In this document: one piece after another, positions 50,172 to 61,379 of the stretch
Position numbering within the stretch: the stretch's first letter is position 1
How the letters are laid out: every line of letters begins with the position of its first letter
Notes under the pieces: model-generated
What the model saw: the letters and a program-made list of their open reading frames with translations, nothing else
What the model was told of the DNA's origin: nothing
The model's database searches: none
NCBI GenBank assembly: GCA_035370405.1
Contig: DAOOVT010000001.1
Location: 485-64,484 of the forward strand
DNA length: 64,000 bases
Reading direction: 5' to 3'
From: Candidatus Dojkabacteria bacterium
GTDB taxonomy: Bacteria; Patescibacteriota; Dojkabacteria; SC72
Made by a program: the position numbers and the translations under genes

Positions 50172-50248
50172 GCCGAAGTAGCTCAGTTGGTCAGAGCAGC
50201 TGTTTTGTAAACAGCAGGTCAAGAGTCCGAGTCTCTTCTTCGGCTCCA
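50172..50248 (+). tRNA. tRNA-Thr (anticodon UGU), with an unusual C at T-loop position 55.
   Basis: Acceptor GCCGAAG/CTTCGGC. Anticodon stem GCTGT/ACAGC with loop TTTGTAA. CCA encoded. T-loop TCCGAGT instead of TTCGAxT. Confidence 0.7.
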
Positions 50249-50252
50249 TTGT

Positions 50253-50338
50253 GCAGAGATGGCGGAGCGGTCAAACGCGGTGGACTGTAAATCCACTCCC
50301 TTCGGGGTTCATTGGTTCGAATCCAATTCTCTGCACCA
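50253..50338 (+). tRNA. tRNA-Tyr (anticodon GUA).
   Basis: Acceptor GCAGAGA/TCTCTGC. Anticodon stem GTGGA/TCCAC with loop CTGTAAA. Long variable arm. T-loop TTCGAAT. CCA encoded. Confidence 0.8.
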
Positions 50339-50766: not shown

Positions 50767-50842
50767 GGGCTCATAGTTTCAATTGGTAAAACAGCGGTCT
50801 CCAAAACCGTAGTTCACCGTTCGAGTCGGTGTGGGCCTGCCA
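50767..50842 (+). tRNA. tRNA-Trp (anticodon CCA).
   Basis: Acceptor GGGCTCA/TGGGCCT with two G-U pairs. Anticodon stem GCGGT/ACCGT with loop CTCCAAA. T-loop TTCGAGT. CCA encoded. Confidence 0.75.
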
Positions 50843-52760: not shown

Positions 52761-52874
52761 CCTTACAACCCTCTTCTACAGCAAACATATCATAGGGAGT
52801 TTACAAGTTTGGCAATACAAACTACAATTATTCTGTCTGCTCTTACAAAACAGAAAAAATGAAAGGAGGCTCAA

Positions 52875-53087
52875 TTGTTAGCTAAAGGAAAGTGGATACT
52901 CATTTATGATAATGGATATAGATATCTAGTATCAATCGCTGGAGATCATTATGAAAGACTAGAAATCATATCAGTAATATCGGAAAACAGTGGTATTGCA
53001 AGAGATGTTAATACTGGAAAGTATTATGAGTACAATAATGAATCTGGTTCTCTCTTTCTCAAAGAATCATTTATCCCATCGGATTAA
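52875..53087 (+). CDS. Small 70-aa hypothetical protein (TTG start) inserted between rplA and rplJ.
   Basis: A perfect Shine-Dalgarno AAAGGAGG at 52862-52869, 5 nt before a TTG start. An ORF of 70 codons. No recognisable family. Confidence 0.4.
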   Translation: MLAKGKWILIYDNGYRYLVSIAGDHYERLEIISVISENSGIARDVNTGKYYEYNNESGSLFLKESFIPSD

Positions 53088-53106
53088 ACTGTTTTGTAGA
53101 GCACTC

Positions 53107-53166
53107 TTAGTGAGTCTAATAAGAAATGTAAATTCATTTTTACTTCTGCCCTATTAGACTCACTAA
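53107..53166 (+). terminator. A 15-bp perfect-stem hairpin (attenuator, terminator, or rplJ-leader structure).
   Basis: TTAGTGAGTCTAATA (53107-53121) pairs with TATTAGACTCACTAA (53152-53166), with a 30-nt loop. A T-rich tract follows. Confidence 0.4.
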
Positions 53167-53204
53167 TAATATTCTGTGTATTTGTTGATTGATATTAAAT
53201 CATC

Positions 53205-53213
53205 TGATATAAT
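53205..53213 (+). promoter_or_regulatory. Extended -10 promoter (TGaTATAAT) upstream of rplJ.
   Basis: TGATATAAT lies 88 nt upstream of the rplJ ATG. An internal L10 promoter at this position is known from E. coli. Confidence 0.45.
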
Positions 53214-53301
53214 GCACGAGACTTACCGAAGAAATAAGGTACAAAAATAAATCCTTACGAGGCAAGTGTATGTTCAACTATAATTATTAACTATAACAAA
53301 T

Positions 53302-54412: not shown

Positions 54413-55081
54413 ATGACATATTCCCCATTTACTTCATGGATTCTAGATAATGGTGTCTCTCAACAGACATTAGAACTTCTAGTATCTATAACTGTTGTTG
54501 CAACAATCGTAAGCATATTCAGATACATTTTTGGAGGAAAATCATATGGTATATATTCCCCAATTATTTTAGCAATAGCATACTCATATACTGGTCTTAA
54601 ATATGGACTAGCCATAACTGCCGTTGTCATAATAACAACCCTTGTCTCCTACTCGGTACTGAAAAAGATAAGAATGCATTACATTACAAGAATTGCAATA
54701 AATTACTGCCTTCTAGTAATTGCAATTCTCATGCTCATAATAGCTACCTACAAATATGATTTGGGCTTAAAAAATACATCTATGATATCCCCTCTAGCAC
54801 TTGTATCCATTGCAACTCTTTCTGATTTCTTTGTAAAACAATTTACCCAAAAATCCTTAAAAACTTCATTCTCTCCTCTCATAGGAACAATCGTAATAGC
54901 ATCAATCGGTTGGTACATAATAACTTCTGAGCAAATATCACAGTACATGATTAACAACCTCTGGATAATACCTCTACTCATATTCATAAATATACTCATA
55001 GGACAATTCAAAGAACTTAGAATTAAGGAAATCCTCAGATTTAATTCCATAGTTGGGAACAAGGACAATGCTCAAAAGTAA
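54413..55081 (+). CDS. Seven-transmembrane membrane protein, the membrane partner of an alpha-L-glutamate-ligase-like system.
   Basis: Seven predicted TM helices in 222 aa. The 3' end overlaps the start of the downstream ATP-grasp gene by 29 nt. No transglutaminase-like domain is present. Confidence 0.55.
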   Translation: MTYSPFTSWILDNGVSQQTLELLVSITVVATIVSIFRYIFGGKSYGIYSPIILAIAYSYTGLKYGLAITAVVIITTLVSYSVLKKIRMHYITRIAINYCLLVIAILMLIIATYKYDLGLKNTSMISPLALVSIATLSDFFVKQFTQKSLKTSFSPLIGTIVIASIGWYIITSEQISQYMINNLWIIPLLIFINILIGQFKELRIKEILRFNSIVGNKDNAQK

Positions 55082-56525
55082 AGGTTACAAAGAAATATTA
55101 GGTATCAACAGAAGGAATCAGGAATACATCCGTCCGTATAACTCTGCTAGAGCTAAAAATATTGCAGACAACAAAATTCTTACAAAAAAAATACTAACTG
55201 AAAATGGAATCTTAACACCTAAAATTTACAAAGTTGTAAAAGACAGAAAACAATTAGAATTTTTGAATTGGGATTCACTTCCTAAAAGTTTTGTAATTAA
55301 ACCTAACAAAGGCACAGGAGGCAATGGCATCATTATATTCTACGGGAAGAAAAAAGGACAAACAGCTTGGATAAGACCAAACGGAACTGTAATGTCTAAA
55401 TATGACATCTCCTTACATATTGCAAATATTCTTGATGGAAGATACTCCATGGGAAATAAAAAAGATACAGCAATCATAGAAGAAAGAGTCAAAACAGACC
55501 CTTTTCTTAAGCAATATTCATACAAAGGAGTTCCTGATATAAGGGTAATATGCTTCAAAGGAGTACCCATAATGGCCATGATACGAATTCCAACTAAAAG
55601 ATCAAATGGAACTGCAAATCTACATTCTGGAGCAATATGCACTGGTATAGATATAGCTACAGGAATTACCACATATTCTATGCAAATGGATACAAAAAGT
55701 ATATTTAGTGATGTATATGAAGATATAGAATATACTACAGACCTAGAAGATAATAAAAAGCTCAGTGGTATAACTATTCCTGATTGGAACAAAATACTCG
55801 AAATAGCTCTAAAGTGCCAAAAGGTTACAAAACTTGGATACATTGGAGTAGACATATCAATAGATGCAGAAAAAGGTCCTGTTGTTTTTGAATTAAACGC
55901 TAGACCAGGATTAGGAATACAAGTCGCCAATAAAGCAGGATTAAGATCTAGACTAGAACTAATAAAAGAGGTTGATGTAAAAAGTATCAGACACGGTATA
56001 AAGATTGCAAAAGATCTTTTTGGTGGAGAAATTGAGGAGAGTATAGAATCAATAAGTGGAAGAAAAGTAGTTAATATTATTGAAAAGGTAACATTATTTG
56101 ATAGACAAGCACTTTCTGTCAAAAAGAAAAATAAGAATAATAAACAACCCTCTAAGGTTTTTATGGATACAAGTATTCTCACATCTAGAATTACAGAAGC
56201 AACAGCAAATAGAATTGGTTTCCTTTCAACCACAAAATATTTTAATTCCTTAAACGTTCCTGAAAAATTCAATACACTTAAAGATGCTCAGAAGTATATT
56301 GATGAAAATATTCAAGCACTGACATTAGAAGAAGGAATAAAGAGGATTGCCAAAATTGCAGATGGCAATGATGTGAAGATACGCCCTGTAATAGAAATAT
56401 CTATGGAAATAGCTGAACAGGTTAGATCTCTCGATGTTATAATCGTCCCAGATTTAGAGTATCCTATATCTATGGGAAGAAATGAATTGAAAGGATATTT
56501 AATTGATACCACACATACTTTTTAA
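55053..56525 (+). CDS. Alpha-L-glutamate-ligase-like (RimK-related, TIGR02291-like) ATP-grasp enzyme fused to a C-terminal retropepsin-like (RimB/DUF785-like) domain.
   Basis: The N-terminal half has ILGINRRNQEYIRPYN...FVIKPNKGTGGNGIIIF...YKGVPDIRVICFKGVPIMAMIRIPTKRSNGTANLHSGAICTGID...ELNARPGLGIQVANKAGLRSRLELIKE. This matches my memory of Pseudomonas/Vibrio alpha-L-glutamate ligase-like proteins. The C-terminal approximately 170 aa has VFMDTSILTSRITEA and IRPVIEISMEIAEQVRSLDVIIVPDLEYPISMGRNELKGYLID, matching the retropepsin-like putative zinc protease family. Confidence 0.65.
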   Translation: MGTRTMLKSKGYKEILGINRRNQEYIRPYNSARAKNIADNKILTKKILTENGILTPKIYKVVKDRKQLEFLNWDSLPKSFVIKPNKGTGGNGIIIFYGKKKGQTAWIRPNGTVMSKYDISLHIANILDGRYSMGNKKDTAIIEERVKTDPFLKQYSYKGVPDIRVICFKGVPIMAMIRIPTKRSNGTANLHSGAICTGIDIATGITTYSMQMDTKSIFSDVYEDIEYTTDLEDNKKLSGITIPDWNKILEIALKCQKVTKLGYIGVDISIDAEKGPVVFELNARPGLGIQVANKAGLRSRLELIKEVDVKSIRHGIKIAKDLFGGEIEESIESISGRKVVNIIEKVTLFDRQALSVKKKNKNNKQPSKVFMDTSILTSRITEATANRIGFLSTTKYFNSLNVPEKFNTLKDAQKYIDENIQALTLEEGIKRIAKIADGNDVKIRPVIEISMEIAEQVRSLDVIIVPDLEYPISMGRNELKGYLIDTTHTF

Positions 56526-56527
56526 AT

Positions 56528-57520
56528 ATGAAGAAATATGAGGAATATTTGAAAGAGTGTGGAAATGTACATTTAGCATATTACATTTGGGCTGCTAATA
56601 AACTTGGAATTCACTATGAAGTTTTAGTAAAAGGACTCCTTGCACAATTTAGTGATGGAAATGCAATATGGCATATAATAAATACAGCTACTCCATTAAC
56701 AACAACTACGTCAACAACAATATGTAAGAGGAAGAATTTAACTCATATGGTTCTCGAGAGGAATTGTATCGCTGTCCCAAGACAAAAGACCCTACTCTCT
56801 TCCTCCGATGCTGTGAATTTTTTTAATGAATATAAAGATATAGTTATTAAGCCAACACAACAACTTGGAGGAAAGGGAGTATCTATCCTCCCACAGAGCG
56901 AACAAGAAGCATCTGAGGCTTTCGAAAGAGCATCATTAGCCTCTCATTCAAAAACATCTTCCAAAGTTATTGCAGAGCAATTTGTGCATGGACAAAATTA
57001 CAGATTTCTAGTTCTAGGGGATAGTGTTATAGCAGTAGCAAGAAGAAAATCAGCCCATGTTATAGGTGATGGAAAAAGTAATATCAAACAGCTCATAGAA
57101 CAAACAAACATAATTCGTAAAAATTCTTTGTTAAAGCCTATCATCATAGATGATGAGGTTAATCTAAAGCTAAAAAGAGATTTCCTATCATTGGACACTG
57201 TACCAAAAGCTGGACAAGAAATAATATTAAGATATAACTGCAATTTGACTACAGGAGGAACTACAGAAGAATGCATGAGTGAAGTTGACAATTACTATAA
57301 GGAAGTTGCTATAAACGCAGTTAAAATAGTAGGTGCAGAATTTGGAGGAGTAGACATTATTGCAAAAGACATATCCTCCATCGGAGAATTTGCTGTAAAT
57401 GAAATCAACTACAACCCTGGATTAAGACTCCATTACAAAGTTGATAAAGGTAATATTACTGATGTTGCTGTCCCAATAATGCAGTACATTAGAGATAAAT
57501 ATATAAACTTACCAAAATAG
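56528..57520 (+). CDS. Cyanophycin-synthetase-like ATP-grasp ligase (CphA G-domain homolog; no Mur-ligase domain).
   Basis: IVIKPTQQLGGKGVSI...NYRFLVLGDSVIAVARRKSAHVIGDGKSNIKQLIEQTN...YNCNLTTGGTTEE...GVDIIAKDIS...AVNEINYNPGLRLH. This parallels the CphA ATP-grasp motifs (VVVKP..GNHGRG; YRLLVVG..VAAARR.PA.V.GDG..T...LIE..N; NLSTGG; VEVNAGPGLRMH). Confidence 0.6.
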   Translation: MKKYEEYLKECGNVHLAYYIWAANKLGIHYEVLVKGLLAQFSDGNAIWHIINTATPLTTTTSTTICKRKNLTHMVLERNCIAVPRQKTLLSSSDAVNFFNEYKDIVIKPTQQLGGKGVSILPQSEQEASEAFERASLASHSKTSSKVIAEQFVHGQNYRFLVLGDSVIAVARRKSAHVIGDGKSNIKQLIEQTNIIRKNSLLKPIIIDDEVNLKLKRDFLSLDTVPKAGQEIILRYNCNLTTGGTTEECMSEVDNYYKEVAINAVKIVGAEFGGVDIIAKDISSIGEFAVNEINYNPGLRLHYKVDKGNITDVAVPIMQYIRDKYINLPK

Positions 57521-57527
57521 TACAAAA

Positions 57528-59234
57528 ATGCAAAAAAACACACAAGTACTGCAAGGGTTAAACCTCCTTTCGACAACTTCTCTAGTCACAATAAAAATTC
57601 AAAACAAAGAAAATGTAGAAAAACTACTAAAACAAATAACCTCCTACCACCCAATATTCATAGATAAATACCACTTTGAACAAAATAATCTCTTAATAGA
57701 AACCGCTATCCCATTCGTATGGAGAGAAGCATCAACATATATTCAAAAGCTATCGCAGGGAGAGCTATCATACAAAGATTGTAAGAAGAAAATAGTAGAA
57801 GACATAATAACCCGAAGACTAGCATCTATGTCTACTATTCCTGTTCTCCATTCAGCACACAAACAACAAAAAGAGATAACTCCAACAATAATCTCCGATT
57901 ACAACTCCTCGAAGAATAAGGCTACAGAATCTAAAGGATTTAATAGATATTACACATTAGGCTGTGGTAAGGAATCCCAAGTAATATATTCAATATCCTC
58001 TAGCAAAGATTCAAAAACTGCAAAACAAATACAAAGAGACAAATGGAGCACCAATATGCTAATGGAAAGACTTGGTCTTCCAATACCGAAATGGCAACTA
58101 GTAGGAAGCAAGGCTGATATAGACAAAATCTGGGATAGTTACACAAAACCAGTAGTCATAAAACCTACAGGCCTTGCAGGAGGTAATGGAGTAGTTCTAG
58201 GAATCAAAACAAAAGAACAATGCAAAAAAGCATTTGACTTTGCTCAAAAGGCAACAAATACATTTCCAAGAAGTGCATGGCAGAAAAAAATTATGATACA
58301 AGAACAAGTTCAAGGAGAAGATTACAGACTACTAATAGTCGATGGCAAATTTGAAGTAGGTACAAAAAGAATTCCAGCATTCGTAACTGGTGATGGAAAA
58401 AACAGCATAAAGAAATTAATAGAAGAAGCAAATAAAGATCCAAAAAGAGACCTATCTAACCCATCTCACACACTAAAACCAATAATCATTGACGATCCTC
58501 TACTAGATTATCTAAAACAACAAAAGCTATCTCTCGAAGAAATCCCTCAAAAGGGACAAAAAATACAACTTAGAAAAGTTGCAAGCATGAGTCAAGGAGG
58601 TATCACTGAAGATGTCACAGACCTTGTTGGAGCAGAAATTAGATACATCGCAGAAAGCATAGCTCAATCAATACATGCATTCACTCTGGGTGTAGATGTA
58701 CTTTGCAAAGACATCACTAAACCACTCACAAAGGAAAATGGAGCAATACTCGAGGTAAACACTATGCCAGAAGTATATCTCAACATATTCCCAGTAATAG
58801 GAGAAGAAAAAACAAATGTAATAGACACATATGTAGACAAACTTCTTTCTGGAAATAACACTAAAAGAATTGTAGTTGTAGGGAATCCATCAATAGATAT
58901 CTCTACAATGTTAAAAAGAAAAACATTCATCTGCTCATACTTAAAACAAGATGACGTCGTCGGAGAATATAGAGACAAAGAATTAAGAATAAATGGCCTT
59001 ACAATAAACAAAGAGCTAAAAAAAGAAAAAGCTCTTGAGGCACTAAAAATAAATGCTGCATTAGATGCAATAATACTACATCATAGAAATTGGGAAGAAG
59101 TAGAAGAAACAGGTTTAGGTTTTGAAAAAATAGACCTATTAATAATTACAAAAGATATGAGAAAAGACAAAAGATTTAATCAAATTTTGAGATACAGACT
59201 AAGAGGACTAATTACAAAGATTAAAATTATTTAA
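57528..59234 (+). CDS. Cyanophycin-synthetase-like ATP-grasp ligase with a unique approximately 160 aa N-terminal domain (CphA N+G-domain-like; no Mur-ligase domain).
   Basis: VVIKPTGLAGGNGVVLGI...DYRLLIVDGKFEVGTKRIPAFVTGDGKNSIKKLIEEANKDPKR...ASMSQGGITEDVTDLVGAEIRYIAESIA...GVDVLCKDITKPLTKENGAILEVNTMPEV. This is a strong resemblance to the CphA G-domain, including the DPRRG-like NKDPKRD loop. Confidence 0.65.
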   Translation: MQKNTQVLQGLNLLSTTSLVTIKIQNKENVEKLLKQITSYHPIFIDKYHFEQNNLLIETAIPFVWREASTYIQKLSQGELSYKDCKKKIVEDIITRRLASMSTIPVLHSAHKQQKEITPTIISDYNSSKNKATESKGFNRYYTLGCGKESQVIYSISSSKDSKTAKQIQRDKWSTNMLMERLGLPIPKWQLVGSKADIDKIWDSYTKPVVIKPTGLAGGNGVVLGIKTKEQCKKAFDFAQKATNTFPRSAWQKKIMIQEQVQGEDYRLLIVDGKFEVGTKRIPAFVTGDGKNSIKKLIEEANKDPKRDLSNPSHTLKPIIIDDPLLDYLKQQKLSLEEIPQKGQKIQLRKVASMSQGGITEDVTDLVGAEIRYIAESIAQSIHAFTLGVDVLCKDITKPLTKENGAILEVNTMPEVYLNIFPVIGEEKTNVIDTYVDKLLSGNNTKRIVVVGNPSIDISTMLKRKTFICSYLKQDDVVGEYRDKELRINGLTINKELKKEKALEALKINAALDAIILHHRNWEEVEETGLGFEKIDLLIITKDMRKDKRFNQILRYRLRGLITKIKII

Positions 59235-59269
59235 ACAAACATAATTAATTTATTAGGAAATATAAATCT

Positions 59270-60238
59270 ATGCGATTCTTAATTATTGAAAAAAGACAAA
59301 GGATCAATAATAACAGATTCAAAACAGATATACCAACAGGCTCTGAGAGACTAATAGAGGAACTGAAAAAAAGAAATATAGAATATGATTTCATATACAA
59401 TGATCAGCTAGAATTCATCTTTAAACCATATACTATGAATATCCTTGCAAATGGGAAAGATATTCTGGAATACTCCCATATACTATTCAGAGGACACGCC
59501 CTTCACAATGACAAAGAATACCATTTCAAACGATATATCATAGATTATGTTGACAATTACAATAAAAAAAATACAAATAACAAAATTCTTGTACAAAATG
59601 CAGATGCAATAAAAAAACTCCCATACTATAACAAGATAGCAATGGCACAACTATGCTATGAAAATAATCTCCCCTACTTCACCACATATTATAGACCAGA
59701 TGGAAATTACTCCAATTCACAAAGAAGCATTCTAAATGAATATCCTTTAGTTATAAAGGAATACACAGGAGAGAATAGAATAGAATTAATTGATGGAGTT
59801 GAAAAAATCAAAAAGAATGTCTTCAAGCTTAACAATTTAGATGATTATTCACAACAAGGACTTAAAGATCAAAACCTAGCTAATTTCTTCATTCAAGAAT
59901 TTTCCAATGCAGGAGAAGACTACAGGATATTTGTAAAACTTGGAAAAGTTGTCGCTGGATGGAAAAGAAAAAGCACCAAGAATTTTATAACTGTAAATCA
60001 AGGAGAATATGAAATATACAATGAACCCAATGAAGAAATAAAGACTATTGCAGAAAGAATGAGCAATGTCTTAAACGCTGATTTTGTAGCAGTCGACTTT
60101 ATGTATATAGGAGACAAACCATATATACAAGAGCTTTCCCTACACCCTGGATACAAAGCTTACGAAACAAAAGCAAAGGGAACTCCCATAAATATTGCAG
60201 AACAAATAATATCGGCTTTTAAAGTCCCACCTTTCTAA
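59270..60238 (+). CDS. RimK/LysX/GshB-type ATP-grasp ligase.
   Basis: GEDYRIFVKLGKVVAGWKRKS...VNQGEYEIYN...DFVAVDFMYIGDKPYIQELSLHPGYKAY, the ATP-grasp C-terminal core with an RimK-like DxRxxV...NxxxG layout. Confidence 0.55.
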   Translation: MRFLIIEKRQRINNNRFKTDIPTGSERLIEELKKRNIEYDFIYNDQLEFIFKPYTMNILANGKDILEYSHILFRGHALHNDKEYHFKRYIIDYVDNYNKKNTNNKILVQNADAIKKLPYYNKIAMAQLCYENNLPYFTTYYRPDGNYSNSQRSILNEYPLVIKEYTGENRIELIDGVEKIKKNVFKLNNLDDYSQQGLKDQNLANFFIQEFSNAGEDYRIFVKLGKVVAGWKRKSTKNFITVNQGEYEIYNEPNEEIKTIAERMSNVLNADFVAVDFMYIGDKPYIQELSLHPGYKAYETKAKGTPINIAEQIISAFKVPPF

Positions 60239-61379
60239 ACATACTAAGCCACTGATCTTTTGTAGGAACATTAGATGCTCTTGGAATTAAACCATCTTCT
60301 ACCCATTCACACTGTTTAATAGAAATTTTCCCAGAATAAAGACTATTGTACAATGATGGATTCTTTGCAATACTAGAAGATACTTTTCTAAAACCTCTAA
60401 AATACACTATATCTTTTACATATATTCCAGCTTTTGATGTATCAGAAAGCCCTCTTTTCACCCTATACGCAACATTAAACGCTGACTGCTTCGGAAATAT
60501 TCCATGTAAACAGTTATACAATTCTCTAAACGAAAGATTCCCTCCTACATATATCGCATATGTTAAAGCAACCTTCCTTTTTAAACTACTTTCAGTCAAA
60601 ACATTTACATTACTTTCATTCCACGTAGCAAGTCCCTCTTCTGCATCTAAATAGGCTGGTAAATTTGAGTTACCTAGAGCAGGAAACCCAGTATTTAGAC
60701 CATTAACAGTTCTCAAAACATGTGTTCCGACCTCATGAATTAATGTTTTCTTTAACATAAGAGCATCTCTCTTTATTCCTTCATCAACAAAAATCTCTTT
60801 GCTCTTTATCCCTACTCTAACAGAATTCTTTCGAATATTTGATGATTTTTCTACTTTCCAACCATTCAAATTCAACATCGTAAATATATTTTGAAAAATT
60901 CCCAATATCTCATCATACTCATACAATCTTCTATCCTTTGATTTATCTACCTTTACAAGATTGTAACTTTTGGTATTACCTCTAAGTACTCTACATGAAT
61001 TTCTAAATAGCTTCCCGCTTGGAAATCCGAATCTTTCAATGGAGATATCTGTAATAGCTTCATTATTCCCAACTGAGTTAATAAGATCATTAGCTTGTTT
61101 CTTAGATGATATTAATGATATGTAAAAATCAGAAATTCTTGGATCTACATCTATTATTTCCTCTACAGACAGAAGTTTTCTGAAAATTTCATCATTCCTG
61201 TTTCGAACGGTTTTGTATTTAAAAACAGGATTATATGTATCAGATTCAAAAAATTTCTCTTCCTCCTCTTCCAAATTAATAGGAGTAAGTACAAATGAAG
61301 TAGGAATTCTCAATTGACCAAGAAGTACAGATACTTCATCTAGTTTCATTTGTTTTATACTTTTATTCAATATTTTCAT
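60219..61379 (-). CDS. DUF1704/QEGLA-motif gluzincin metallopeptidase (MATCAP-like carboxypeptidase family).
   Basis: HEVGTH (HExxH), then about 27 residues later AEEGLATW (the QEGLA-type third zinc ligand). 386 aa. Convergent with, and overlapping by 20 nt, the 3' end of the ATP-grasp operon. Confidence 0.6.
   Translation of the reverse strand: MKILNKSIKQMKLDEVSVLLGQLRIPTSFVLTPINLEEEEEKFFESDTYNPVFKYKTVRNRNDEIFRKLLSVEEIIDVDPRISDFYISLISSKKQANDLINSVGNNEAITDISIERFGFPSGKLFRNSCRVLRGNTKSYNLVKVDKSKDRRLYEYDEILGIFQNIFTMLNLNGWKVEKSSNIRKNSVRVGIKSKEIFVDEGIKRDALMLKKTLIHEVGTHVLRTVNGLNTGFPALGNSNLPAYLDAEEGLATWNESNVNVLTESSLKRKVALTYAIYVGGNLSFRELYNCLHGIFPKQSAFNVAYRVKRGLSDTSKAGIYVKDIVYFRGFRKVSSSIAKNPSLYNSLYSGKISIKQCEWVEDGLIPRASNVPTKDQWLSMFRKVGL

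What the first reader, a model, noticed from the sequence alone, without database searches (positions are those of the whole stretch)
55053..56525. RimK-related ligase fused to a RimB-like retropepsin domain in one polypeptide.
In Pseudomonas the alpha-L-glutamate-ligase-like or RimK protein and the small retropepsin-like putative protease (RimB/DUF785) are separate adjacent genes. Here the two homologous regions sit in one 490-aa ORF with no stop between them.

The ligase-like region is roughly residues 1-300. The protease-like region is roughly residues 320-490 and has DTS in place of DTG at the putative catalytic Asp.

This is a Rosetta-stone fusion that supports a functional link between the two. 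The protease-like domain may be a non-catalytic regulatory module.
Basis: partly seen in the sequence, partly recalled or inferred. Interest (0 to 1): 0.75.

Follow-up and report, generated by a model that had tools for sequence, protein, structure and literature searches.

The report
Ligase fused to divergent retropepsin-like domain
A candidate-phylum bacterium (Dojkabacteria) encodes in one protein a peptide-tail-building ligase and a distant relative of the bacterial HIV-protease-like enzymes RimB/RloA. The fusion is real and conserved, but it is a variant of pairings and fusions already described rather than something new in kind.

Summary
The ORF at 55053-56525 (+) is real. It is 490 aa from TTG; the conserved start is ATG 55068, giving 485 aa.

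- **Ligase half.** Residues 11-305 are an RloC-type ATP-grasp ligase: PF14397 at 5e-71, and TIGR02291 at 298.7 bits against a cutoff of 314.2.
- **C-terminal half.** Stronger evidence still supports the call:
  - The family profile reaches PF05618-passing relatives (hhalign 99.7%, E 5e-26).
  - Those relatives match RloA crystal-structure sequences at about 1e-9.
- **Not an artefact.** 71 of 76 Dojkabacteria species genomes carry one uninterrupted ORF in the same gene cluster. The other five are cut by contig ends or a gap.
- **DTS is real** (D372-T373-S374), but 69 of 76 species have DTG.
- **Prior knowledge.** RimB-RimK hybrids (opposite domain order) and the rloABC operon were published in 2025. 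Pfam-recognised PF14397+PF05618 fusions exist in other Patescibacteria.

Verdict: interpretation supported; a new variant of a known kind; moderate interest. Whether this allele is catalytic is unresolved.

The parts
54413..55081 (+). RloB-like membrane partner: the 7TM_transglut domain only (222 aa), with no transglutaminase-like domain.
   Evidence: PF14402 at 2.3e-18. NF052267 RloB matches model positions 310-506 of 508 only. It lies directly upstream of the fusion in 68 of 76 Dojkabacteria loci and in the distant locus L006.
55053..56525 (+). The fusion gene, 490 aa from TTG. The likely real start is ATG 55068 (485 aa).
   Evidence: (P0018, 100% identity, 485 aa).
55083..55967 (+). RloC-type ATP-grasp amidoligase domain (residues 11-305).
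   Evidence: PF14397 at 5.1e-71 and TIGR02291 at 4.2e-89. Foldseek's best solved relatives are ArgX/LysX and RimK. The KPNKGTGGNG and FELNARPG motifs are nearly invariant.
56019..56066 (+). Acidic linker FGGEIEESIESISGRK (residues 323-338). It is nearly invariant but predicted to be flexible.
   Evidence: G, G, E, I, E and G are invariant across 129 sequences. GGE[VI]EESIE..SG[RK] is present in the 76 loci and recognisably in distant fusions. pLDDT is below 50 for model residues 322-334.
56052..56522 (+). Divergent RimB/RloA-family (PF05618-related) retropepsin-like domain (residues ~334-490).
56166..56174 (+). D372-T373-S374 at the position of the catalytic DTG motif.
   Evidence: AGT (Ser) stands where orthologs encode Gly. 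The same allele is present in P0018, P0026 and P0027.
56196..56321 (+). Helix-loop-helix insertion where canonical retropepsins have the beta-hairpin flap (residues ~382-423).
   Evidence: DSSP on both models. It is shared with the standalone and fused relatives of the subfamily.
56528..57520 (+). Cyanophycin-synthetase-like ATP-grasp ligase, 330 aa (cluster member).
   Evidence: NF010623 at 8e-65, far below the family cutoff. Conserved downstream in 74 of 76 loci.
57528..59234 (+). Second cyanophycin-synthetase-like ATP-grasp ligase, 568 aa (cluster member).
   Evidence: NF010623 at 1e-72, far below the family cutoff. Present in 72 of 76 loci.
59270..60238 (+). RimK-like ATP-grasp ligase, 322 aa (cluster member).
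   Evidence: PF08443 at 4e-9 and TIGR00768 at 1.5e-13, below cutoff. Present in 61 of 76 loci; the absences are at contig ends.
60219..61379 (-). MATCAP / DUF1704 (QEGLA) family gene, 386 aa, convergent with the cluster. The metallopeptidase role is inferred from the family name.
   Evidence: PF08014 at 5e-27 and TIGR02421 at 5.5e-31. Present in 53 of 76 loci. It is fused to the ligase-retropepsin protein in P0173 / L006.

Best explanation
SHOWN. The gene encodes a genuine two-domain protein that is conserved across Candidatus Dojkabacteria (WS6, Patescibacteria).
- The N-terminal ~305 aa are an RloC-type (PF14397 / TIGR02291-like) ATP-grasp amidoligase with intact nucleotide- and Mg-binding motifs.
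- The C-terminal ~155 aa are a very divergent member of the RimB/RloA (PF05618) retropepsin-like family. A helix-loop-helix replaces the beta-hairpin flap.
- The two halves are joined by a nearly invariant acidic linker.
- The gene sits in a fixed cluster: 7TM RloB-like membrane protein, this fusion, two cyanophycin-synthetase-like ligases, a RimK-like ligase, and a MATCAP-like peptidase.

INFERRED by analogy with RimK/RimB and the rloABC genetics. This is a compact, all-cytoplasmic 'writer-eraser' unit.
- The ligase domain adds acidic residues (most likely alpha-L-glutamate) to a C-terminus or builds an oligo- or polypeptide.
- Two fused chains pair through their retropepsin domains to form the Asp dyad.
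- That dyad trims or limits the product and/or stimulates the ligase, as RimB does for RimK.
- The 7TM protein couples the unit to the membrane.

In most species (DTG) the domain is probably catalytic. In this window's allele (DTS) activity may be weakened, with the domain retained for pairing, regulation or substrate binding.
For: - **ORF and domains:**
- **Full-length architecture:** more than 120 protein clusters at 63-76% identity. A single ORF in 71 of 76 species genomes, with identical synteny.
- **Homology chain:**
  - The Dojkabacteria-domain profile gets 96 hits at E<=1e-3 among 1.84 billion proteins.
  - Six of ten standalone ~140-160 aa hits scanned pass the PF05618 gathering score. 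So do the retropepsin domains of the fused hits P0141, P0144, P0167 and P0173.
  - hhalign gives 99.7%, E 4.7e-26.
  - That subfamily matches RloA2 / RloA / 2pma sequences at 4.6e-10 / 1.1e-9 / 1.9e-8.
- **Split form:** a 295-aa ATPgrasp_ST gene followed directly by a 146-aa RimB-like gene.
- **Triple fusion:** ligase + RimB-like + MATCAP next to a 7TM gene.
- **Catalytic motif:** D and T are almost invariant and G is present in 69 of 76 species, although domain identity to the window falls to ~40%.
- **No decay:** non-DTG lineages show no extra divergence of the domain.
- **Published function:**
  - RimB cleaves polyGlu tails and stimulates RimK, and a RimBK hybrid is proteolytically active (PMC11957791).
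  - RloA cleaves polyGlu. rloB/rloC deletions suppress the rloA1-3 mutant (PMC12239564).
Against: - There is no direct Pfam or NCBIfam hit for the C-terminal domain.
- The window allele has DTS. Close relatives have DTT, DTA or DTV, and one has NTG.
- Two of the four conserved polyGlu-coordinating basic residues of RloA are absent from the whole Dojkabacteria family. K46 is Phe here. R137, whose Ala mutant fails to rescue the rloA1-3 mutant and strongly reduces activity in vitro, has no equivalent. My mapping rests. Substrate specificity may therefore differ, or proteolysis may be lost.
- Dimerisation, ligase substrate and proteolysis were not testable here.
- TIGR02291 scores just under its cutoff: 298.7 against 314.2.
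- That RloC itself belongs to TIGR02291 rests on my own knowledge plus the adjacent RloB-like gene, not on a direct comparison.
Confidence: 0.6

Rival explanations
1. Pseudo-protease. The C-terminal domain keeps the retropepsin fold but is non-catalytic in Dojkabacteria, or at least in this lineage. It would act as a dimerisation, ligase-activating or acidic-tail-binding module.
For: - DTS in the window. DTT, DTA, DTV and NTG occur in near relatives.
- DTS also recurs in distant ligase-retropepsin-MATCAP fusions.
- The equivalents of K46 and R137 of RloA are lost family-wide.
- The flap is replaced by helices.
- RimB has a non-proteolytic role in stimulating RimK (PMC11957791).
- The domain is no more divergent in non-DTG lineages, so it stays under selection without the Gly.
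Against: - Asp is present in 75 of 76 species and Thr in all of them; Gly is present in 69 of 76. This holds at only ~40-60% domain identity, which is hard to explain without catalysis. A structural 'fireman's grip' role could contribute, though.
- The RPV Arg (R114 equivalent) is retained.
Confidence: 0.25
2. Self-processing polyprotein. The invariant acidic linker (GGEIEESIE) is the protease domain's own cleavage site. The fusion would be cut into a free ligase and a free retropepsin, as retroviral proteases excise themselves.
For: - The linker is nearly invariant in 76 species and recognisable in distant fusions, yet it is predicted to be disordered.
- RimB and RloA cut internal acidic stretches.
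- Split and fused forms coexist in nature.
Against: - RloA needs 8 or more contiguous Glu and does not cut a mixed Asp/Glu (DDDDEEEDDD) stretch. The linker has only E-x-E-E-x-x-E.
- The linker may instead be the conserved C-terminal part of the ligase plus the first strand of the protease domain.
- There are no experimental data.
Confidence: 0.1
3. Artefact. A sequencing or assembly frameshift or a lost stop codon near 56000 joined two separate genes, or the C-terminal similarity to retropepsins is chance.
For: - There is no Pfam hit to PF05618.
- Several metagenomic contigs end inside, or have a gap in, this gene.
Against: - The same single ORF occurs in 71 of 76 independent species assemblies and in more than 120 protein clusters.
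- The junction is the most conserved part of the protein.
- The fold and profile evidence is consistent and significant.
Confidence: 0.02

Closest known systems
RimBK hybrid enzyme (e.g. Desulfotalea psychrophila DP2392; Little et al. 2025, J Biol Chem, PMC11957791)
   Same: One polypeptide combines a PF05618 retropepsin-like domain with an ATP-grasp alpha-L-glutamate-ligase-type domain. The retropepsin part of RimBK is shown to be proteolytically active on polyglutamylated RpsF.
   Different: - Domain order is reversed: RimB is N-terminal in RimBK, whereas the protease-like domain is C-terminal here.
- The ligase is RimK proper in RimBK. Here it is the PF14397 / TIGR02291 (RloC-type) family, and TIGR00768 scores only 53.6 against a cutoff of 143.4.
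- RimBK occurs mainly in Flavobacteriales and Rhodobacterales; this protein is in Patescibacteria.
- This protein sits next to a 7TM gene and three further ligases.
rloABC operon of Pseudomonas (Lormand et al. 2025, mBio, PMC12239564)
   Same: The same three protein families are linked: a retropepsin-like peptidase (RloA), a PF14402 7TM protein (RloB) and a PF14397-type ATP-grasp (RloC). The adjacent 7TM gene and the ligase family make this the nearest system.
   Different: - RloA is a separate, secreted protein with a signal peptide, a disulfide and a beta-hairpin flap. Here the domain is fused to the cytoplasmic ligase, has no signal peptide, has a helical 'flap', and lacks the equivalents of K46 and R137.
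- RloB carries a periplasmic inactive transglutaminase domain. Here only the 7TM part exists (222 aa).
- Here the cluster also holds two CphA-like ligases, a RimK-like ligase and a MATCAP-like peptidase.
RimB/RimK of Pseudomonas fluorescens
   Same: A cytoplasmic retropepsin-like peptidase is physically and functionally coupled to an ATP-grasp glutamate ligase. The peptidase trims the ligase's product and stimulates the ligase.
   Different: They are separate genes and proteins. The known target is ribosomal protein S6. The ligase belongs to a different ATP-grasp family. No membrane partner is involved.
Pfam-recognised PF14397+PF05618 fusions in other Patescibacteria (P0141, P0144, P0240, P0252, P0266; database entries named 'RimK/LysX family protein'), and the standalone helical-flap PF05618 proteins of Patescibacteria and Woesearchaeota
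   Same: Same domain order, same linker motif, and same helical insertion after DTG. hhalign gives 99.7%.
   Different: Those relatives keep K-x-D-T-G-A and D-R...Y..GR, and they pass the PF05618 threshold. The Dojkabacteria clade has F-M-D-T-G-[VI], lacks the D-R arginine, and falls below every curated model. I found no paper describing these fusions.

Membership tests
PF05618 (RimB-like / 'Zn_protease', DUF785) retropepsin-like peptidases | Scores above the Pfam gathering threshold (27 bits). | tested here: not met
   PF05618 does not appear at E<=1 for the whole protein or at E<=10 for the C-terminal 195 aa alone. NCBIfam gives nothing either.
PF05618 (RimB-like / 'Zn_protease', DUF785) retropepsin-like peptidases | Statistically supported homology to bona fide members. 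| tested here: met
   The profile of the domain hits proteins that pass PF05618. hhalign gives 99.7%, E 4.7e-26. Those proteins match RloA2 / RloA / 2pma at 4.6e-10 to 1.9e-8. The direct profile against PDB puts RloA2 and RloA on top, but weakly (E 0.012 and 0.05).
PF05618 (RimB-like / 'Zn_protease', DUF785) retropepsin-like peptidases | Retropepsin (clan AA) fold. | tested here: met
PF05618 (RimB-like / 'Zn_protease', DUF785) retropepsin-like peptidases | Catalytic D-T/S-G motif. | tested here: inconclusive
   The window has D372-T373-S374, so Asp and Thr are kept and Gly is replaced by Ser. Among 76 species the motif is DTG 69, DTS 2, DTA 1, DTT 1, NTG 1, with 2 unscored.
PF05618 (RimB-like / 'Zn_protease', DUF785) retropepsin-like peptidases | Conserved basic residues that coordinate polyglutamate (RloA K46, R114, R137). 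| tested here: not met
   K46 is Phe here (F-M-D). R114 is kept as the Arg of 'RPV'. R137, the Arg of 'DR..YP', is absent. This is my mapping. One of the three residues is retained.
PF05618 (RimB-like / 'Zn_protease', DUF785) retropepsin-like peptidases | Homodimer that forms the Asp dyad; peptidase activity. | not testable with these tools
   No multimer prediction or biochemistry was available.
RloC-type ATP-grasp (PF14397 ATPgrasp_ST / TIGR02291 alpha-L-glutamate ligase-like) | Pfam PF14397 above the gathering score. | tested here: met
   239.6 bits against a cutoff of 31.4, covering profile positions 1-277 of 278.
RloC-type ATP-grasp (PF14397 ATPgrasp_ST / TIGR02291 alpha-L-glutamate ligase-like) | TIGR02291 above NCBI's curated cutoff. 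| tested here: not met
   298.7 bits against a cutoff of 314.2. This is a near miss, and TIGR02291 is by far the best-scoring model.
RloC-type ATP-grasp (PF14397 ATPgrasp_ST / TIGR02291 alpha-L-glutamate ligase-like) | ATP-grasp nucleotide- and Mg-binding motifs intact. | tested here: met
   KPNKGTGGNG and FELNARPG are nearly invariant in 129 sequences. The fold matches ArgX/LysX, RimK and Ddl.
rloABC system | Secreted RloA carrying a signal peptide. | tested here: not met
   The domain is C-terminal to a cytoplasmic ligase. The protein starts MLKSKGYKEILGINRRN, with no hydrophobic leader (read).
rloABC system | RloB is an inactive transglutaminase domain plus 7TM. | tested here: not met
   The neighbour is 222 aa and matches only the 7TM part: PF14402 positions 52-247 and NF052267 positions 310-506 of 508.
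rloABC system | Retropepsin-like, 7TM and PF14397-ligase functions encoded together. | tested here: met
   The arrangement is conserved in 68 of 76 loci and in L006.
RimBK hybrid | RimB domain N-terminal to a RimK-family ligase. | tested here: not met
   The domain order is reversed. TIGR00768 scores 53.6 against a cutoff of 143.4, and NF007764 (RimK) scores 21.6 against 331.

The most novel reading that the evidence does not exclude
In Dojkabacteria the retropepsin domain has been re-tooled rather than merely fused. Its features are a helical flap, loss of two RloA polyGlu-binding residues, and an invariant acidic tether. It could be a self-regulated trimming module with a new specificity for a so-far unknown membrane-associated poly-amino-acid. 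That polymer would be built by the four ATP-grasp ligases of the cluster (RloC-type, two CphA-like, RimK-like) and handed to the 7TM protein. This would make the cluster a new polymer pathway of CPR bacteria and a minimal model for what the rlo system makes.
Probability: 0.15. Interest if true: 0.7.

Novelty: new variant of a known kind. Interest (0 to 1): 0.4.

Why it matters
- **Placement of the protease.** The product of the rlo system and the reason a cytoplasmic ligase is paired with a periplasmic protease in Pseudomonas are open questions (PMC12239564). A lineage with tiny genomes keeps the ligase and the protease-like domain in one cytoplasmic chain. Its partner is a 7TM protein that lacks the periplasmic transglutaminase-like domain. 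This argues that the core of the system is ligase + retropepsin + 7TM, and that a cytoplasmic protease is a viable, possibly ancestral, arrangement.
- **Annotation.** The result adds a domain call for a protein currently named only 'ATP-grasp domain-containing' or 'alpha-L-glutamate ligase-like' in about 76 species.
- **MATCAP.** The triple fusion links the MATCAP/DUF1704 family to the same process.
- **Limit.** None of this overturns current views. The functional link itself was already known.

Tried and rejected
- Direct Pfam and NCBIfam scans of the C-terminal 195 aa at E<=10 gave only noise: PF13793 at 0.13 and NF046054 at 0.087.
- A single-sequence phmmer search against PDB sequences returned only spurious designed armadillo-repeat hits to the helical insert.
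- Fold search with the full-length model returned only ATP-grasp enzymes. The domain had to be modelled alone.
- The afdb50 fold library was unavailable.
- The Iyer et al. 2009 amidoligase paper (PMC3268129) is not held. I could not check whether it already noted this fusion.
- A megablast against E. coli genomes was pointless and found nothing.
- I considered recoded stop codons as the reason the first C-terminal-domain hits were short (228-283 aa). This was rejected: the short hits whose contigs I looked up are truncated by contig ends or an N gap, and full-length orthologs are abundant.
- No paralog of the domain exists elsewhere in the window. An hmmsearch of all ORFs gave only a 10-bit hit to rplL.
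- Faster decay of the domain in non-DTG lineages was tested and not seen.
Full report
**Observation**

An in-frame ATG at 55068 gives a 485-aa product. That product is identical to database protein P0018 and matches the start of the orthologs, so it is the likelier start. No stop or frame change separates the two halves.

**N-terminal half**

Residues 11-305 are an ATP-grasp ligase of the PF14397 family (5.1e-71, 239.6 bits). The best NCBIfam model is TIGR02291, 'alpha-L-glutamate ligase-like protein' (4.2e-89, 298.7 bits), just under its 314.2 cutoff. RimK proper (TIGR00768, NF007764) scores far below its cutoffs. The glycine-rich KPNKGTGGNG and the FELNARPG motifs are nearly invariant in 129 aligned sequences. 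The full-length AlphaFold model (pLDDT 82.8) finds ArgX/LysX, RimK and D-Ala-D-Ala ligases as its nearest solved folds.

**C-terminal half: the direct test fails**

Formally this is what happens. PF05618 is absent from the whole-protein scan at E<=1, and from a scan of the last 195 aa alone at E<=10. NCBIfam gives nothing either. A single-sequence search of PDB sequences gives only spurious hits.

**C-terminal half: more sensitive evidence**

- **Direct profile against PDB.** A profile of the Dojkabacteria domain puts RloA2 and RloA on top, weakly (E 0.012 and 0.05). Both the DTG strand and the C-terminal 'RPV...YP..GR...D' block align in the right order.
- **Profile against 1.84 billion proteins.** The same profile gives 96 hits at E<=1e-3.
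  - Six of ten standalone 136-176 aa hits scanned pass the PF05618 gathering score.
  - So do the C-terminal domains of other PF14397 fusions (P0141 at 35.9 bits, P0144 at 37.4, P0173 at 38.1, P0167 at 28.9).
  - hhalign between the Dojkabacteria domain and these standalone proteins gives 99.7%, E 4.7e-26 over 144 columns.
  - The standalone set matches the RloA2, RloA and 2pma crystal sequences at 4.6e-10, 1.1e-9 and 1.9e-8.
- **Split form.** A 295-aa PF14397 gene is followed directly by a 146-aa RimB-like gene.

The domain is therefore a divergent member of the RimB/RloA family, below the reach of the curated models.

**Not an artefact**

- More than 120 protein clusters of 482-497 aa cover 97-99% of the query at 63-76% identity.
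- A scan of species-representative genomes found 76 loci. Those with an informative label are Candidatus Dojkabacteria / WS6 or allied Patescibacteria. The nearest is DAOOVU010000013.1 at 83% in the domain.
- In 71 of the 76, one uninterrupted ORF carries both the ligase N-terminus and the protease-like end. The other five are cut by contig ends or a gap.
- The gene order rplL, 7TM, fusion, 330-aa ligase, 568-aa ligase, 322-aa ligase, MATCAP (minus strand) is the same wherever the contig reaches.
- The junction is the best-conserved part of the protein.

**Anatomy of the domain**

- After the DTG strand, canonical retropepsins have a beta-hairpin flap. Here both models predict two helices (residues ~382-399 and ~409-423). 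These helices carry invariant residues (R387, G389, F406, Q413). The standalone and fused relatives in other Patescibacteria and in Woesearchaeota share this insertion.
- The linker FGGE[IV]EESIE..SG[RK] is nearly invariant in Dojkabacteria and recognisable in distant fusions. It is nevertheless predicted to be flexible, with pLDDT below 50.

**Catalytic status**

- Among the 76 species the motif is DTG in 69, DTS in 2, DTA in 1, DTT in 1 and NTG in 1; 2 were unscored.
- The window and its nearest relatives carry the non-Gly variants.
- Non-DTG lineages do not show extra divergence of the domain: C-domain identity is 0.52-0.62 against 0.52-0.55 at the same ligase identity. The domain therefore stays under selection.
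- The RloA paper names K46, R92, R114 and R137 as polyGlu-coordinating residues. The R114A and R137A mutants fail to rescue the rloA1-3 mutant.
- By my alignment-based mapping, K46 (K-x-D) is Phe in Dojkabacteria, R114 is the retained Arg of 'RPV', and R137 (the 'DR' before Y-P) has no equivalent. The more distant relatives keep all three.
- I conclude that most orthologs are probably still peptidases, possibly with altered specificity. This window's DTS allele is uncertain.

**What is already known**

- Little et al. 2025 (PMC11957791) show that RimB is a retropepsin-like endopeptidase. It removes polyGlu tails, cuts internal polyGlu and stimulates RimK.
- They also describe a RimBK hybrid, with the RimB domain N-terminal to RimK, present in 12% of rim-bearing genomes. 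The D. psychrophila protein is proteolytically active.
- Lormand et al. 2025 (PMC12239564) describe rloABC: a secreted RloA, an inactive-transglutaminase-7TM RloB, and an ATP-grasp RloC. Deleting rloB or rloC suppresses the rloA1-3 mutant.
- The main text of that paper mentions no fusion involving RloC.
- Pfam-recognised PF14397+PF05618 fusions exist in Moranbacteria and other Patescibacteria under the name 'RimK/LysX family protein'.
- I could not retrieve Iyer et al. 2009, which may have noted such contexts.

**Most likely mechanism**

The points below are inferred. The gene is the ligase-plus-eraser core of a compact rlo-like system.
- The neighbouring 222-aa protein matches only the 7TM part of RloB.
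- The fused protein has no signal peptide, so the protease-like domain must act in the cytoplasm, as RimB does.
- The ligase would add acidic residues to a C-terminus or build a peptide.
- Paired retropepsin domains of two chains would trim it and/or stimulate the ligase.
- The MATCAP-like peptidase belongs to the same process. It is fused to the ligase-retropepsin protein in P0173, next to a 216-aa 7TM gene.
- The two cyanophycin-synthetase-like ligases and the RimK-like ligase are fixed members of the cluster. The product may therefore be more complex than polyGlu.

Rivals are a pseudo-protease module, self-processing at the acidic linker, and an artefact. The last is excluded.

**Verdict**

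- It is a new variant of a known kind: reversed domain order relative to RimBK, an RloC-type ligase, a helical flap, a partner lacking the transglutaminase-like domain, and a CPR host.
- Interest is moderate. The main value is a better annotation and a natural minimal version of the rlo system. It is not a surprise in kind.

Noticed in passing
L006:731-3481 (P0173, 916 aa); also P0205, P0206, P0210, P0217, P0221, P0222 and P0229 (784-817 aa): P0173 is a triple fusion of ATPgrasp_ST, RimB-like and MATCAP, lying next to a 216-aa 7TM gene. The ~790-aa proteins resemble it. P0205, the only one scanned, has PF14397 + MATCAP, with a short DTS-type segment matched by the domain profile between them. 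This ties the MATCAP/DUF1704 (QEGLA) family to the same pathway.
   Followed up: partly
P0167 (688 aa) and P0178 (703 aa): P0167 has ATPgrasp_ST + RimB-like + a YdjC-like domain. P0178 has a RimB-like domain at residues 105-239, followed by about 460 aa with no Pfam match.
   Followed up: no
window 56528-60238 (+): Three further ATP-grasp ligase genes follow the fusion. Two resemble the cyanophycin-synthetase ATP-grasp region (330 and 568 aa, far below the family cutoffs) and one is RimK-like (322 aa). They are conserved in order across Dojkabacteria, and their product is unknown.
   Followed up: partly
window 60219-61379 (-): The MATCAP/DUF1704 homolog converges on the RimK-like ligase gene, and their 3' ends overlap by 20 bp (60219-60238).
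   Followed up: no
L001, L002, L004, L005 (contig ends); L003:5257-6432 (run of N); L010, L018, L041, L046, L052, L055, L056, L072: Many metagenomic contigs end inside or just before the ligase half of this gene, and one scaffold has a gap there. The cause could be strain heterogeneity or paralogous ATP-grasp sequence. It was not examined.
   Followed up: no
window 56019-56066: The linker FGGEIEESIESISGRK is nearly invariant from Dojkabacteria to distant fusions, yet it is predicted to be disordered. It could be a tether, a pseudosubstrate or a processing site.
   Followed up: partly
window 50172-50335 and 50767-50839 (+): Three tRNA genes lie upstream of the run of ORFs I read as secE-nusG-rplK-rplA-rplJ-rplL (not scanned against families), which directly precedes the cluster.
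   Followed up: no
window 52761-53301: A 540-bp spacer lies between the ORFs I read as rplA and rplJ, and it holds a 70-aa ORF (52875-53087). No Rfam family, such as an L10 leader, reached its gathering score there. A relative (L003) has a 115-aa minus-strand ORF at the matching place.
   Followed up: no
P0279, P0281, P0287, P0299: Small (108-144 aa) PF05618 proteins are common in Candidatus Woesearchaeota (DPANN archaea), and some occur on many contigs. The retropepsin-like family is therefore well represented in both groups of ultra-small organisms.
   Followed up: no
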